Shown one piece after another: positions 1 through 5,142 of a stretch of DNA of 64,000 nucleotides (the stretch's first letter is position 1; every line of letters begins with the position of its first letter). Source of the stretch: Candidatus Aenigmatarchaeota archaeon (GTDB taxonomy: Archaea; Aenigmatarchaeota; Aenigmatarchaeia; GW2011-AR5); contig JACQID010000006.1 of NCBI GenBank assembly GCA_016198685.1, forward strand, positions 96,001 to 160,000. Direction: 5' to 3'. The notes under the pieces are model-generated. The model was not told the origin of the DNA, made no database searches, and saw only the letters and a program-made list of their open reading frames with translations. The translations under genes were made by a program, and so were the position numbers.

Positions 1-468
1 GCAATCTTCTATTATTTTCAGGCTGTGTTTGTTTGCTATGCTGCGTATCTCTTTCATGTCGCACGGTTGGCCGTAAAGATGGACTGGTATTATGGCCTTT
101 GTCTTGCGTGTTATCTTTTGCTCAATGAGAGCGGTATCTATATTGTAATGACTATCGCAGTCAGCAAGTATTGGGGTAGCCCCGACACTCATTATTGCCA
201 TGACCGTAGGAGATGCAGTGTTCGCAACAGTAATCACTTCGTCTCCCGGGCCTATGTCGAGAGCCCGGAGCGATAGGATAAGCGCGTCTGTACCCGATGC
301 AACGCCAATGCAATGCTTGTTGCCGTTGTAGGCGGCGAATTCTTTCTCGAAAGCAACGACATTCTCTCCCAGGACGAAAACGCCGTTCTCAAGCACGGAG
401 AATACAGCGCTATCTATTTCATTTTTGATGGTAGCGTACTGCCTTTTCAGGTCAAACACAGGTATCAT
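1..468 (-). CDS. DegT/DnrJ/EryC1/StrS aminotransferase (FdtB-like), N-terminal 156 aa, runs off the window edge
   Basis: Manual translation, not in ORF track: [11 protein letters not shown]...[26 protein letters not shown]...[15 protein letters not shown]...IIEDC. Start overlaps the upstream stop (TAATG). Confidence 0.9.
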
Positions 469-860
469 TATTTTCCGCCTCTGAACGAATCATAATCCTT
501 AAGATAATCATCGGCATTATAATGCTCTGAGCACAGAACCATTATCACAGCGCCTTGCGAAATGTTTTGCATCTCGACCCAGATGCGTTGTGGAACGTAA
601 AGCCCCTTCGCCGGACCATTAAAACTATGCACTGCCTTAACACTGCCATCATCGGTGATTATATCGGCGTTGCCCTGCAGGACTATAAACATCTGCTCGC
701 ACTTCTTGTGGGCATGGCCTCCCCTTTTCGCCCCGCGAGGAACTCCGTATATGTAGAATATTCTTTTCACATCAAAAGGTATATCTTTTCCAGCTTCTAC
801 AAATCCAAGACTCCCGCGAGCATCAGTTACTTCAGGGAGTTGTATAATTTTTACGCTCAC
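468..860 (-). CDS. FdtA/QdtA-like cupin, NDP-4-keto-6-deoxyhexose 3,4-isomerase
   Basis: [30 protein letters not shown] motifs; adjacent to a DegT aminotransferase. Confidence 0.88.
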
Positions 861-1834
861 TCAAACCACCATCTGTTTTGTCTGCACCACGCAATCATTT
901 CCCTAATGCCTTCCTCAAGAGAAGTCGTTGCTTCCCAGCCGAGCATGGCCTTCGCCTTGCCTGCGTCAGGCACACGCCTGGGAATGTCTTCATAGATGCT
1001 TCCATAAAGCTTTCTCGTATCAACATACTCTACGCCAAGATCTTCCCGGCCCGCGGCCTTGAGCATCAGTTGAGCCGTCTCATTGAGAGTTCGCTCTTTC
1101 ATGCTGCCGATATTGAACGCATGTCCTTCTGCTTTCTTGGATTCCGCTGCGAGCAAAGTTCCTTCAATGGCGTCCTTTACATATGTGAAACAGCGTGTCG
1201 GAGTTCCTCCGTCATATATGAGAGGTCTTTCATTTCGCAATATCCTGCGCAGACATGCGGGTATCATGAATATCGGCGCCTGCCTTGGGCCGTAGACGTT
1301 AAAATAGCGGACTATTGTCACAGGCAATCCATGCATGCGGTTCAATGCAAATAGCATATGCTCACTCATGCTCTTGCTGGTGCTGTATGTCCACCTGTCA
1401 ACTTTGGTGCTGCCTACCACACGGTCATCGTCCTCTTTCCACGGCACTTTTGGATTCTTTCCAAACACTTCACTCGTACTCGTGTATATGACCTTCGTTC
1501 CATGCTTCATTGCAGCTTCAGCCACGTTTTTTGTGCCCAATATATTGACGCTTACAGTGCCTAAAGGATCCTCACAGTAATTTTTCACCCCGACTACAGC
1601 GGCAAGATGGTAGACGACATCAATATCCTCTGTTATAACATCCTTCATGCCATTGCCTGTTATGTCTCCTTTGACAAAATGGAATCTTTCGTTTGTCTTC
1701 AGATGCTGTATATTCCGCAATTTTTCCAGTTCTGCGTTGTCAAAAACCGTTACCTCATGGCCTCTTTGCAGAAGCTCTTCAGTCAAATGACTGCCTATGA
1801 AACCGCCCCCTCCGGTGATTACAAGATTAGCCAT
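857..1834 (-). CDS. NAD-dependent epimerase/dehydratase (UDP-glucuronate decarboxylase-like extended SDR)
   Basis: GGGGFIG Rossmann motif, STSEVFG, YSTSK (YxxxK), RYFNVYGP. Confidence 0.85.
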   Translation of the reverse strand: MANLVITGGGGFIGSHLTEELLQRGHEVTVFDNAELEKLRNIQHLKTNERFHFVKGDITGNGMKDVITEDIDVVYHLAAVVGVKNYCEDPLGTVSVNILGTKNVAEAAMKHGTKVIYTSTSEVFGKNPKVPWKEDDDRVVGSTKVDRWTYSTSKSMSEHMLFALNRMHGLPVTIVRYFNVYGPRQAPIFMIPACLRRILRNERPLIYDGGTPTRCFTYVKDAIEGTLLAAESKKAEGHAFNIGSMKERTLNETAQLMLKAAGREDLGVEYVDTRKLYGSIYEDIPRRVPDAGKAKAMLGWEATTSLEEGIREMIAWCRQNRWWFE

Positions 1835-3218
1835 GTATCCTGCCTCCTTGAGGTTTGCCTATTCCTGCATATCCGAACCCATTCTCCGCCGCCTTGACCG
1901 GGCCAAATATAATTCTCCCCTCCACAATCGAACAGCCTTCAGCTGCAATGCCGTGCAGTTTTTTGAGATCGAGCGACTTGAATTGAGGATGATCGGCGCC
2001 TATCAATATACAGTCCGCATTTTCTATTGCGCTTTCGGGGGTTTTTGCGACATTCCCTGCAATCATCCGGGCATCGTTTTCAGTAACCCAAGGGTCATAT
2101 GCAGTCACGATACAATTTTCAGCCTCCAGCAGTTTCACTATTTCTTTCATCGGCGTATTGCGCACGTCTCCAGTCCCGCCCTTGAAAGCGAGACCGAGAA
2201 CTGCGATTCTGCTGCCTTTGATTTTTTTGTTCGCATATGCAAGGCAGCTTTTGACAAGATCTACGGTATGGGCAGGCATGGCTTCATTTACTTCCCGTGA
2301 CGTCTTCGGAGTCTTGAGATTCAGCCCTGCCTTTTTGCCAAGATGATACACAAACCATGGGTCTTTAGTAAGGCAGCTGCCGCCAACGCCGCATCCCGGA
2401 TATAATATATTGACCATGCTCCTGCCTTTGGGCAGGCTATTTGCCGCGTCTATTACTTCTGAGGCATCCAGCCCCATCCTTTCGCATAGCATTGCAAGCT
2501 CATTGGCCAGTGCGATATTCGCGTCTATCCAGAGGTTATCGGCAAGCTTGGCCATCTCTGCGGCTTTTGCCGAAGAGACTTTTGTTGTGACAAACCCGTT
2601 TGACCGCCAGAATGATTCGGCTTTCTTGCCGCTTTCTGCGTCTATGCCGCCTATAATTATAGGAAGCTTTTTCAGGTCTTGGATTGCAGACCCTTCAGCC
2701 AGGCGCTCCGGGCAAAACGCAAGTCCGAAGTCCTTTCCTGCCTTGAGATTGGATTTCTTTTCTAACATTATCTTGACAAGCTCTTCGGTCGTGCCGGGAG
2801 TAACAGTGCTTTTGAGTATGATCATAGCGCCTTTTCCGACCAACGAACCTAATTTTTCAGAAACTTCATTTATGTATTCAAGGTTAGGCTCGTAATTTTT
2901 GCCTAGCGGAGTGCCGACAGTCACAAGAATTACATCGGCATCGGCGACTTCCGATATTTGTGCCGTAGCCCGTATGTTTCCTTTCTTAAGGGCATCCGAG
3001 ATGAGTCCTTCGACTTCAGGCTCGTTTATCGGCGACTTTCCGTTATTTACAGCGTTTATTATTGCAGGATTGACATCAATTGCAATCACCTTGTTATTTC
3101 TGGCAAGTAGAGAGCCGATGCTGGCGCCCACATAGCCAAAGCCTATGACAGCAACTACCGTCTTCCCCGTTTTTGTCTGTTCCATTATCTGTTCTTCATC
3201 GAGAGAAAATATTTTCAT
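1827..3218 (-). CDS. UDP-N-acetylhexosamine/nucleotide-sugar dehydrogenase (WecC/WbpA family)
   Basis: GFGYVG, VTVGTP, CPER, AEMAKL, GVGGSCLTKDP. Confidence 0.88.
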   Translation of the reverse strand: MKIFSLDEEQIMEQTKTGKTVVAVIGFGYVGASIGSLLARNNKVIAIDVNPAIINAVNNGKSPINEPEVEGLISDALKKGNIRATAQISEVADADVILVTVGTPLGKNYEPNLEYINEVSEKLGSLVGKGAMIILKSTVTPGTTEELVKIMLEKKSNLKAGKDFGLAFCPERLAEGSAIQDLKKLPIIIGGIDAESGKKAESFWRSNGFVTTKVSSAKAAEMAKLADNLWIDANIALANELAMLCERMGLDASEVIDAANSLPKGRSMVNILYPGCGVGGSCLTKDPWFVYHLGKKAGLNLKTPKTSREVNEAMPAHTVDLVKSCLAYANKKIKGSRIAVLGLAFKGGTGDVRNTPMKEIVKLLEAENCIVTAYDPWVTENDARMIAGNVAKTPESAIENADCILIGADHPQFKSLDLKKLHGIAAEGCSIVEGRIIFGPVKAAENGFGYAGIGKPQGGRIHG

Positions 3219-3226
3219 TATATCAC

Positions 3227-4288
3227 CTAAACGCTTATGTCAGAATCTTCCCCTATCATGAGCCTCATCGTATCCCCGTTCCTTATTTTCGAATTCTTCC
3301 CCAAAAGGCTGCCTGATATTTTTTTAGCTCCTATGTCAATGAAGCAACCTGACATGAGTATGGAAGATTCCACAGTTCCGCTGATTATTTCGGATAAATC
3401 ACCGATTGATGTGTAAGGTCCGATGGAAGCGTTTGCTATAGTGCAATTGTCTCCTATTTTGACAGGCCCTATTATCTTCGCCCCCTTCCTCACTACTGTT
3501 CCTTTCCCGATTTCAACCGCGCCGTGAATAGACGCGCCTTCTTCGACGGTTCCTGCATTATATGGTTTAAGCGCCGAAAGTATCATTTCATTGGCATGAA
3601 GGACATCTTCGCCTGTTCCTGCGTCATCCCACCATCCGCTTATCGTATGGTGCAGTACTTTTCTGCCGGACGATAGCAAGCCCTGTATGGCGTGCGTTAT
3701 TTCAAGCTCATTTCTCGCCGAAGGCGACAAGACATCTATTTGCCTCATAATAGATGGCCGGAATATGTACACGCCTACAATCACCGTATCGCTTTTGGGT
3801 TTGACAGGTTTCTCTTCTACGCTTACTATGTTATTATCCTTTATCTCGGCAACCCCGAATCTTTCCGGCGTCCTAGACTTTGCAAGGAGAAGGCTCGCAT
3901 CGGCGTCTGACGCAAAAAACTCCTTCACGAATTTCCCTATGCCGCCGCTAATGATATTATCTCCAAGATACATTACAAAAGAGTCCTGTCCGAGGAAATC
4001 GCGTGCCGTCCATACCGCGTGAGCGAGGCCTCTCGGCGCATCCTGCTCTATATAAGTTATTTTTGCGTTCCATTTACTTCCGTCTCCGCACGCGTCTTTG
4101 ATAGCGTTTATTCTCTCGGCGGAATAGCCAACTATTATGCCTATTTCTATTACTCCGGAAGCTACAAGATCCTCTATCGCATAATGAATGACAGGCTTGT
4201 TGGCTATAGGGATTAACTGCTTTGGGCCTGCATGGGTCAGAGGGCGGAGGCGTTTGCCCAACCCGCCGGCCAGAATGATGCCCTTCAT
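3227..4288 (-). CDS. rmlA: Glucose-1-phosphate thymidylyltransferase, long form with C-terminal hexapeptide-repeat region
   Basis: ILAGGLGKRLRPLTHAGPKQLIPIANKP, YIEQDAPRGLAHAV, ELEIT, WDDAG. Confidence 0.85.
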   Translation of the reverse strand: MKGIILAGGLGKRLRPLTHAGPKQLIPIANKPVIHYAIEDLVASGVIEIGIIVGYSAERINAIKDACGDGSKWNAKITYIEQDAPRGLAHAVWTARDFLGQDSFVMYLGDNIISGGIGKFVKEFFASDADASLLLAKSRTPERFGVAEIKDNNIVSVEEKPVKPKSDTVIVGVYIFRPSIMRQIDVLSPSARNELEITHAIQGLLSSGRKVLHHTISGWWDDAGTGEDVLHANEMILSALKPYNAGTVEEGASIHGAVEIGKGTVVRKGAKIIGPVKIGDNCTIANASIGPYTSIGDLSEIISGTVESSILMSGCFIDIGAKKISGSLLGKNSKIRNGDTMRLMIGEDSDISV

Positions 4289-5106
4289 TTCACCAGCCTC
4301 CTTGCGGCTTCTGCATCCTGCTTTGTATGGATGTTGACGAATTTTCCGGATAGTATTGCGCCGCCCAAAACGCCCTTTTTGCTGAGTTCAGGAAACAAAT
4401 CCTTGTGAAGCGAGAATTTCCTGTCGGGTATCATTGTAAATATTTCAGGCTCCGCAAAAGCTATCATCGTGGAAACAAGGGTAGTCTTCTCAACAGAGGG
4501 CGTATCCCAGTAATTTATAATGTCGTTCCCGTCCAATTCGACCACAGAACTGCGGTTGCCGTCATGCCTTATGCCTCCATAAATGGCAAGCGTGGCAGGA
4601 TAGCCGCTGCGCCTGTGGACATTTTCCAGTTTTCTTAAATCAAAATCAAAATAGTGGTCGCATGGAACGAAAAGGAATGTACCCCTCACTTTCGCGCTCG
4701 CGAGTTTCAAAGTATTCGCGCTATCGCCCCTTGCCTTTTCCTCGATATATGCAACAGAACATCCCAGCGACTCGCCGTTCGCCAGTATCCCGAAGCATCT
4801 TGTCACAACTTCTTTGGTGCCTATTATAATTATGTTTCTGTAGCTCTGGCCCACGACTTTTTCCACGATGCGCTGAATCAAGGTTCTGCCTCCTATGTCC
4901 ATGAAGGGCCTGTATTCGCCGTCCGTAATCAGATAATCGCCCCCGCCTGCAAGAATAACACAGTACCTGCCCGCATCCATGTATTCCTGAAGAATTGATT
5001 CTATGGCGCCTGATCGTGTGTCAGAGAGCGCTTCCGCGTATGCGTCCACGCTTTTTATCATCTTGTCCGGAAGGGAGAGCGAGATTCTTTTGCGCATAGT
5101 AATCAC
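4285..5106 (-). CDS. Ribbon-helix-helix (CopG-like) domain fused to a degenerate nucleotidyltransferase domain; probable regulator (ATG start possibly 5097)
   Basis: N-terminus RKRISLSLPDKMIKSVDAYA...TRSGAIESILQEYM fits the RHH pattern; followed by CVILAGGG and an NTP_transferase-like fold lacking the GTRL/PK signature. Confidence 0.75.
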   Translation of the reverse strand: MITMRKRISLSLPDKMIKSVDAYAEALSDTRSGAIESILQEYMDAGRYCVILAGGGDYLITDGEYRPFMDIGGRTLIQRIVEKVVGQSYRNIIIIGTKEVVTRCFGILANGESLGCSVAYIEEKARGDSANTLKLASAKVRGTFLFVPCDHYFDFDLRKLENVHRRSGYPATLAIYGGIRHDGNRSSVVELDGNDIINYWDTPSVEKTTLVSTMIAFAEPEIFTMIPDRKFSLHKDLFPELSKKGVLGGAILSGKFVNIHTKQDAEAARRLVK

Positions 5107-5133
5107 GTAATAAAACGTAATACTATCGTAATA
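5106..5133 (-). promoter_or_regulatory. Three CGTAATA direct repeats between the TATA box and the start of the RHH-NTase gene; putative operator
   Basis: Copies at 5106, 5116 and 5127 (10-11 bp period); TTAAATAT on the minus strand at about 5133-5140. Confidence 0.6.
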
Positions 5134-5142
5134 TATTTAAGC

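What the first reader, a model, noticed from the sequence alone, without database searches (positions are those of the whole stretch)
4285..5133. RHH DNA-binding domain fused to an apparently inactive nucleotidyltransferase: candidate sugar-nucleotide-sensing repressor
Seen: the first ~45 aa are RHH-like. The rest follows the NTP_transferase fold, but AGG is followed by GDYLITDGEYRP instead of the GxGTRL..PK signature intact in the paralogs at 3227, 27353 and 29151. The gene heads the minus-strand nucleotide-sugar operon. Three CGTAATA repeats, one helical turn apart, cover its TATA-to-start interval. Inference: a one-component regulator that uses an enzyme fold to sense NTP, sugar-1-P or NDP-sugar and control glycan precursor genes. 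I know of no characterised regulator with this architecture.
Basis: partly seen in the sequence, partly recalled or inferred. Interest (0 to 1): 0.7.

Follow-up and report, generated by a model that had tools for sequence, protein, structure and literature searches.

The report
Sugar-pathway repressor with dead-enzyme sensor
This gene of a tiny uncultured (DPANN) archaeon joins a small DNA-binding domain to a sugar-activating enzyme fold that has lost key catalytic residues. A repeat array conserved across several archaeal phyla sits on its own promoter, so it is most likely an undescribed switch for cell-surface sugar precursor genes.

Summary
Window 4288-5097(-) encodes a 270-aa protein: an N-terminal ribbon-helix-helix (RHH) domain fused directly to a sugar-1-phosphate nucleotidyltransferase (NTase) fold. 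The NTase has lost the G-loop Arg, the second metal Asp (now Asn255) and, in this clade, the EKP Lys. Other pocket residues are invariant.

Three TATTACG copies spaced 11 and 10 bp run from the TATA box towards the ATG. They are copies of a palindromic heptamer, GTAWTAC. The same heptamer array precedes the orthologue in 22 of 23 loci from Aenigm-, Woese-, Micr-, Nano- and Parvarchaeota. It occurs nowhere else in those loci, and only once per genome in four genomes tested.

The gene always lies beside nucleotide-sugar genes. It is either divergent from rmlCBDA or ugd operons or, as here, first in a tightly coupled block of six genes (rmlA_long, NDP-sugar dehydrogenase, SDR, FdtA, aminotransferase).

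Best reading: an autoregulated repressor whose pseudo-enzyme domain senses a nucleotide-sugar metabolite. The ligand and the DNA binding are inferred, not shown.

The family has at least 157 clusters at 50% identity. Its relatives include RHH-NTases with intact catalytic motifs. I found no paper on this architecture. This scan has already flagged the same family in many other genomes.

The parts
4288..5097 (-). CDS of the RHH-pseudo-nucleotidyltransferase regulator (270 aa, P0001). The stop codon is 4285-4287 and overlaps the start of the next gene (ATGA).
4969..5097 (-). Ribbon-helix-helix DNA-binding domain, residues 1-43
   Evidence: Pfam RHH_1; NikR hit; model with helices 11-23 and 28-42
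4288..4965 (-). Sugar-1-phosphate nucleotidyltransferase-fold domain, residues 45-270; probably non-catalytic
4900..4953 (-). Degenerate G-loop region, residues 49-66. The signature Arg is absent, the loop is 3 residues shorter than in the rest of the family, and the PK Lys is replaced by invariant Arg63.
4654..4659 (-). Invariant Asp147-His148. Asp147 is the retained first metal-binding Asp of the GD motif; His148 replaces the usual Asn or other residue.
4327..4335 (-). Asn255-x-His257, invariant in the family. It replaces the D-x-G motif that carries the second metal-binding Asp.
5107..5134 (-). Operator: three GTAWTAC-type heptamers at 5128-5134, 5117-5123 (perfect) and 5107-5113, with centres 11 and 10 bp apart.
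5133..5140 (-). TATA-like box (TTAAATAT), overlapped by the first heptamer and about 40 nt upstream of the ATG
   Evidence: the same TATA-then-heptamers layout appears in homologous loci
3227..4288 (-). Downstream gene 1: glucose-1-phosphate thymidylyltransferase, long form, with intact motifs
   Evidence: NCBIfam rmlA_long 402.6 bits, cut-off 320
1..3218 (-). Rest of the coupled block: NDP-sugar dehydrogenase (1827-3218), SDR dehydratase or epimerase (857-1834), FdtA-family cupin (468-860) and a DegT-type aminotransferase (runs off the window). Junctions are overlaps or an 8-nt gap.

Best explanation
The protein is a one-component, autoregulated transcription repressor of a nucleotide-sugar operon.

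DNA binding (inferred). RHH domains pair into dimers. Each dimer reads one palindromic GTAWTAC heptamer. Heptamers one helical turn apart place the dimers on the same face of the DNA, where the NTase-fold bodies can contact one another.

Repression (inferred). The array overlaps the TATA box and the expected transcription start. Occupancy should therefore block TBP/TFB or RNA polymerase.

Sensing (inferred). The NTase-fold domain no longer catalyses. It keeps a remodelled, strongly conserved pocket. That pocket probably binds a pathway metabolite: an NDP-sugar end product, or an NTP or sugar-1-phosphate. Binding would alter DNA affinity and so feed precursor supply back onto transcription.

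What is shown here: the domain identities, the loss of catalytic residues, operator conservation and uniqueness, and the genomic linkage.

What is not shown: DNA binding, the sign of regulation, and the identity of the ligand.
For: RHH assignment. NTase fold.

Catalytic residues. The G-loop Arg is lost in the whole family. The D-x-G Asp is replaced by invariant Asn. The PK Lys is replaced by Arg. The EKP Lys is replaced by Thr in this clade. Mutating the homologous Arg cuts activity 100- to 6000-fold in GalU, GlmU and ADP-Glc PPase. The EKP Lys is needed for Glc-1-P binding (PMC4643126).

Conserved pocket. Asp147, His148, Glu120, Asn255 and His257 are invariant and Arg63 nearly so, in 50 sequences that share only 39-58% identity with the window protein.

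Operator. Heptamers are 35.7 per kb in the 78 bases scanned at each regulator start (70 upstream plus 8) against 2.3 per kb in the flanks. Exact copies number 23 in 1.8 kb against 24 in 252 kb. No other doublet occurs in 252 kb of flanks. The own genome has only one array of 3 or more sites, and it is this one. The exact doublet is unique in each of four other genomes and lies at the regulator promoter.

Context. The gene is divergent from rmlC-rmlB-rmlD-rmlA or from ugd-NTase-epimerase, often with intergenic regions of only 46-85 bp. In the window it is co-transcribed with rmlA_long.

Precedent. GMPPA is a non-catalytic NTase paralogue that binds GDP-mannose to regulate GMPPB (PMC11228364).
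Against: There is no experimental or expression data, and no RNA run was listed.

The RHH score of this one protein is just below Pfam's cut-off.

The first metal Asp is retained, and much of the family keeps the EKP Lys, so residual or altered catalysis is not excluded.

Under a relaxed definition (one mismatch per site or fewer), an array of 3 sites arose by chance in 2 of 5 genome shuffles. The weight therefore rests on cross-phylum conservation rather than on this genome alone.

In some loci, such as L007 with a 201-bp spacer, the operator is far from the divergent operon's start. Control of that operon is uncertain there.
Confidence: 0.7

Rival explanations
1. Bifunctional enzyme-repressor. 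The protein still makes an NDP-sugar, perhaps with an unusual substrate or with Arg63 compensating, and also binds its operator. This would resemble BirA, NadR or PutA.
For: RHH-NTases with fully intact G-loop, PK, GD, EKP and DxG motifs are common in the same phylum and also carry heptamer or GTATGA boxes upstream. Asp147 is retained and the pocket is conserved.
Against: In the query's clade of 94 representatives, my motif test classed none as intact (FastTree). In the core family the G-loop Arg is lost and the second metal Asp is Asn in nearly every member. The window protein also lacks the EKP Lys and has a shortened loop. Its Pfam NTase score is 43 bits, against 151 for intact fusions and 173-207 for active RmlA. 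An intact rmlA_long lies directly downstream.
Confidence: 0.12
2. The NTase-fold domain is only an oligomerisation or partner-binding scaffold. It holds RHH dimers in register. Alternatively it forms hetero-oligomers with the co-encoded active RmlA, as GMPPA does with GMPPB, so that enzyme state rather than a free metabolite sets DNA binding.
For: NTases of this fold are oligomers, and GMPPA-GMPPB and GalF-type paralogues act through protein contacts (PMC11228364; PMC4643126). An active NTase is encoded next to the regulator in most loci.
Against: The invariant residues lie in the canonical substrate-binding motifs rather than only at surfaces. That argues for a small-molecule pocket.
Confidence: 0.13
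3. The protein is not a regulator. The N-terminus would be a chance or antitoxin-like RHH, and the repeats a generic promoter feature of these AT-rich genomes.
For: The RHH score for the single protein is marginal. The best weak NCBIfam and Pfam side hits are antitoxin RHH families.
Against: Heptamer arrays are absent from the promoters of all other genes in 252 kb of flanks and are unique per genome. No toxin partner is present. The fusion and its context are conserved across phyla.
Confidence: 0.03

Closest known systems
NikR (nickel-responsive repressor; PDB 2bj1 hit)
   Same: An N-terminal RHH is fused to a C-terminal ligand-binding oligomerisation domain. It autoregulates or represses by binding palindromic half-sites (GTATGA type) over a promoter. 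It was the only DNA-binding protein found by the family profile in the PDB.
   Different: NikR's sensor is an ACT-like metal-binding domain. Here the sensor is a nucleotidyltransferase (GT-A-like Rossmann) fold. The operator here is an array of 2-5 heptamers 10-11 bp apart, not two half-sites separated by 16 bp.
GMPPA, GalF and the ADP-glucose pyrophosphorylase large subunit (non-catalytic or weakly catalytic NTase paralogues)
   Same: They share the enzyme fold, have lost or weakened catalysis through changes in the G-loop Arg region, and were recruited to regulate NDP-sugar supply. GMPPA binds the product GDP-mannose (PMC11228364; PMC4643126).
   Different: Those proteins regulate a catalytic partner by protein contact and have no DNA-binding domain. 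This protein acts, by inference, on transcription.
BirA, NadR and PutA (enzyme-repressor fusions)
   Same: A DNA-binding domain is fused to a metabolic enzyme of the pathway it controls. PutA uses an RHH. The intact-motif RHH-NTases of the same superfamily (L035-L045) may work this way.
   Different: Those enzymes are active, and their catalytic cycle sets DNA binding. The window protein lacks catalytic residues.
MetJ, Arc, CopG and omega repressors (RHH proteins on tandem short repeats)
   Same: RHH dimers bind cooperatively to arrays of short (7-8 bp) repeats in direct or inverted orientation. MetJ uses a small-molecule co-repressor.
   Different: These are single-domain proteins without a large sensor domain, and they are bacterial, plasmid or phage proteins. 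Repeat spacing here is a full helical turn.

Membership tests
Ribbon-helix-helix (CopG/MetJ/Arc) superfamily | N-terminal beta-strand followed by two helices, detectable by an RHH profile | tested here: met
   RHH_1 scores 20.4 bits for the window protein (cut-off 20.5). 35 of 50 family members match, best E 5e-8. The profile hits NikR. The model has helices 11-23 and 28-42 after an extended N-terminus.
Ribbon-helix-helix (CopG/MetJ/Arc) superfamily | Dimerisation to form the two-stranded ribbon, and sequence-specific binding to repeated sites | not testable with these tools
   The only evidence is indirect: conserved palindromic heptamer arrays at the gene's own promoter. No multimer modelling or binding assay was available.
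Sugar-1-phosphate nucleotidyltransferases (PF00483: RmlA, GalU, GMPP) | The fold | tested here: met
   Pfam 43 bits. Foldseek finds GMPPB 7d74 and RmlA 4ecm at E about 1e-17, TM 0.72-0.76.
Sugar-1-phosphate nucleotidyltransferases (PF00483: RmlA, GalU, GMPP) | G-x-G-T-R-L loop with the catalytic Arg | tested here: not met
   The Arg is absent in the whole core family, and the loop is 3 residues shorter in the window protein.
Sugar-1-phosphate nucleotidyltransferases (PF00483: RmlA, GalU, GMPP) | Lys of the P-K motif | tested here: not met
   It is replaced by the nearly invariant Arg63.
Sugar-1-phosphate nucleotidyltransferases (PF00483: RmlA, GalU, GMPP) | First metal-binding Asp (GD motif) | tested here: met
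   Asp147 is invariant.
Sugar-1-phosphate nucleotidyltransferases (PF00483: RmlA, GalU, GMPP) | E-K-P lysine that binds the sugar phosphate | tested here: not met
   The window protein and its nearest relatives have D-T-P. Many more distant family members keep E-K-P.
Sugar-1-phosphate nucleotidyltransferases (PF00483: RmlA, GalU, GMPP) | Second metal-binding Asp (W-x-D-x-G) | tested here: not met
   It is replaced by the invariant Asn255-x-His257.
NikR family | C-terminal ACT-like metal-binding tetramerisation domain | tested here: not met
   The C-terminal domain has the NTase fold. The protein works like NikR but is not a member.
Type II antitoxins with RHH | Small RHH protein encoded with a cognate toxin gene | tested here: not met
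   No toxin neighbour is present. The neighbours are nucleotide-sugar genes in all loci.

The most novel reading that the evidence does not exclude
A DPANN-wide superfamily of one-component regulators arose from a sugar-1-phosphate nucleotidyltransferase. In this reading the enzyme first gained an RHH, giving a bifunctional enzyme-repressor that is still extant with intact motifs. It then lost catalysis in several lineages and became a pure NDP-sugar sensor. If so, these would be the first nucleotide-sugar-responsive transcription factors described in archaea. They would also be the main local control of surface-glycan precursor supply in these genome-reduced symbionts.
Probability: 0.5. Interest if true: 0.75.

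Novelty: new variant of a known kind. Interest (0 to 1): 0.62.

Why it matters
DPANN archaea have tiny genomes, few recognisable transcription factors and no genetic systems. Their surface glycans are thought to matter for attachment to hosts.

This family offers several things:
- a conserved regulator with a defined operator (GTAWTAC spaced 10-11 bp) and a defined target pathway, giving a concrete handle on gene regulation in these organisms that can be tested in vitro;
- a sensor fold not previously described for transcription factors;
- a natural series from intact-motif fusions that are probably active enzyme-repressors to pseudo-enzyme sensors, useful for studying how enzymes become receptors;
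- a candidate NDP-sugar biosensor scaffold.

It also corrects a systematic misannotation. Databases label these proteins as NTP transferases, and one as AglF.

Tried and rejected
Contexts of the intact-motif fusions therefore came from genome-search loci of only about 3.8 kb.

2. No RNA holder was listed for the region, so there is no evidence on the transcription start or on expression.

3. Regulon search. No further heptamer array of 3 or more sites exists in the 935-kb genome. One doublet lies at contig C8:16435-16451, in the 11-nt gap between two co-directional genes. Fewer doublets were observed than expected by chance (8 against 14-24 in shuffles), so I treat it as chance.

4. The ATTACG hits near 62.1-62.3 kb of the window are scattered and unphased. 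I rejected them as operator sites.

Pocket geometry and the clustering of the invariant His, Asp and Asn residues could not be measured. A possible metal site (Cys146, Asp147, His148, His257) was considered but not tested. His161 is conserved in nearly every sequence aligned, the intact-motif ones included, so it is not specific to this family.

6. Four literature searches for this architecture found no paper describing it: two returned no paper at all and two returned only unrelated ones.

7. 'Independent degeneration' of the two paralogues. The FastTree places both inside one larger degenerate group, but with weak support (85-88). This is neither confirmed nor rejected.

8. The toxin-antitoxin reading was rejected on gene context.

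Full report
**What is there**

The ORF at 4285-5106(-) most likely starts at ATG 5097. All homologues begin M-(R/K)-x-R-(I/V)-S-L-S at that position. The product, P0001, is 270 aa.

Pfam finds NTP_transferase on residues 47-223 (43 bits) and RHH_1 on residues 4-39 (20.4 bits, cut-off 20.5). The marginal RHH score becomes firm at family level:
- 35 of 50 aligned homologues match RHH_1, best E 5e-8.
- The family profile hits the RHH regulator NikR (2bj1, E 1e-4) as its only non-NTase match in the PDB.
- An AlphaFold2 model (mean pLDDT 89.5, pTM 0.85) shows an extended N-terminus, helices 11-23 and 28-42, then the NTase domain without a linker.

Foldseek places the model with GDP-mannose pyrophosphorylase B and RmlA (E about 1e-17, TM 0.72-0.76).

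**Organism**

The window lies in a 935-kb genome that is 94% complete. A 99%-identical locus is labelled Candidatus Aenigmatarchaeota (L001). The organism is therefore a DPANN archaeon.

**State of the enzyme domain**

I aligned the protein with the window's three intact paralogues and two RmlA/NTase genes from other loci, and with 190 relatives. The core family shows these changes:
- The G-loop Arg is lost (GGxPxxL in place of GGxGxRL). The window protein and its closest relative also carry a 3-residue deletion here.
- The P-K lysine is replaced by the nearly invariant Arg63.
- The second metal-binding Asp of W-x-D-x-G is replaced by the invariant Asn255-x-His257.
- The E-K-P lysine is Thr in the window's own clade, but is kept in many other members.
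- Retained and invariant residues are Gly51-Gly52, Glu120, Asp147 (GD motif) followed by His148, and others.

These positions are known to matter. Mutating the homologous Arg lowers activity by two to more than three orders of magnitude in GalU, GlmU and ADP-Glc pyrophosphorylases. The E-K-P lysine is needed for Glc-1-P binding (PMC4643126).

The domain is therefore very probably not a pyrophosphorylase. Its pocket motifs are nonetheless under strong constraint, which points to retained ligand binding. That last step is inference.

**The repeats**

TATTACG occurs at 5127-5133, 5116-5122 and 5106-5112 on the minus strand. These are three of only nine copies in 64 kb. They directly follow a TATA-like box at 5133-5140 and end 9 nt before the ATG. 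Read one base over, they are copies of a palindromic heptamer, GTAWTAC.

In 23 homologous loci from genome assemblies, the same layout recurs: a TATA box, then 2-5 heptamers with centres 10-11 bp apart, reaching the start codon.
- Heptamer density is 35.7 per kb in the 78 bases scanned at each start, against 2.3 per kb elsewhere in the loci.
- Exact copies number 23 in 1.8 kb against 24 in 252 kb.
- No other doublet occurs anywhere in the flanks.
- In the window's genome, this is the only array of 3 or more sites.
- In four other genomes of 0.7-1.8 Mb, the exact doublet occurs once, and always at the regulator's promoter.

This is strong comparative evidence for a specific operator and for autoregulation.

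**Context**

In the window, the gene is followed by five genes joined by overlaps or an 8-nt gap: rmlA_long (NCBIfam equivalog, 402 bits), an NDP-sugar dehydrogenase, an SDR dehydratase or epimerase, an FdtA-family cupin (161 bits) and a DegT-type aminotransferase. The block ends where the strand changes. This set is consistent with synthesis of a dTDP-3-amino-3,6-dideoxyhexose.

The upstream methyltransferase is co-directional and ends 45 bp before the ATG.

In most other loci the regulator is monocistronic. It is divergent from rmlC-rmlB-rmlD-rmlA or from ugd-NTase-epimerase, often across just 46-85 bp filled by the TATA box and operator. A factor whose only site lies in that shared region most plausibly controls the divergent operon as well as itself. 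That is inferred.

**Family**

A profile search of 1.84 billion representatives found 157 clusters at E<=1e-30. Nearly all are full length from the RHH onward. The clusters I looked up by name are labelled only as generic NTP transferases. One family member is labelled AglF.

The wider superfamily includes RHH-NTases with all catalytic motifs intact. These are common in Aenigmarchaeota. It also includes forms with the G-loop deleted. One such paralogue lies 11 kb away in this same genome and has its own palindromic site.

In a FastTree rooted on active RmlA, the intact-motif fusions are basal. The query sits in a clade of 94 representatives (support 100) in which the motif test classed none as intact. 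Treat this tree as provisional.

**Mechanism proposed**

RHH dimers occupy heptamers on one face of the DNA, over the TATA box and transcription start. The NTase-fold bodies mediate cooperativity and bind a pathway metabolite that tunes occupancy.

The closest functional analogues are:
- NikR, an RHH with a ligand-binding domain;
- GMPPA, a dead NTase that senses GDP-mannose (PMC11228364);
- PutA, BirA and NadR, for the intact-motif relatives.

**Novelty**

Four literature searches returned no paper describing this architecture. This scan has already reported the same family in many other genomes, with concordant follow-ups. My result adds the GTAWTAC operator definition, per-genome uniqueness, the clade-specific loss of the E-K-P lysine, and the operon assignment for this genome.

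Noticed in passing
L026:1147-1911 (+), which is own genome C1:88563-89327, about 6.7 kb before the window start: A second RHH-NTase paralogue of 255 aa. Its whole G-loop is deleted and it is flanked by GT9-like glycosyltransferase genes. Between its TATA-like box and ATG lies a different palindrome (AGTATG ... CATACT). Its RHH strand differs from the query's (Lys and Ala where the query has Arg4 and Ser6).
   Followed up: partly
L033:666-1499 (-), Parvarchaeota MAG: A further RHH-NTase of 277 aa with a near-intact loop in which only the Arg is changed to Gly. GTATTAC-N3-GTAATAC abuts its start codon. This is the same operator word with 10-bp spacing in a different subfamily.
   Followed up: partly
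L030:1500-1590: An intergenic region carries two heptamer doublets beside TATA-like boxes, but no ORF of 80 aa or more lies downstream. It may be a small gene or an RNA target of the regulator.
   Followed up: no
L035-L045 (Aenigmarchaeota genomes): RHH-NTases with fully intact catalytic motifs. Upstream they carry one RTAWTAC heptamer flanked by GTATGA boxes. L037 has TTTCATAC repeats 11 bp apart. Operator words therefore differ between subfamilies.
   Followed up: partly
L002:5989-6040: The homologue's RHH strand is encoded in frame upstream of the first canonical start codon (the frame opens ATT AAG AAG). The deposited 251-aa protein (P0012) probably has a mis-called start, or the gene uses a non-canonical one.
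   Followed up: no
P0018, P0047, P0064 (413-419 aa): These family members carry an extra N-terminal part of about 145 aa that itself begins like an RHH and continues into a domain of about 100 aa with no assigned function. P0044 has an AIM24/TIGR00266 domain in place of the RHH.
   Followed up: no
window 1-4288 (-) and own genome C1:95386-96000: The operon behind the regulator (rmlA_long, NDP-sugar dehydrogenase, SDR, FdtA, DegT aminotransferase) resembles a dTDP-3-amino-3,6-dideoxyhexose pathway with an added dehydrogenase.
   Followed up: partly
P0049 (the protein of L013): A family member lacking the G-loop Arg is named 'UTP--glucose-1-phosphate uridylyltransferase AglF' in NCBI. This is a probable misannotation of a regulator as an enzyme.
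   Followed up: no
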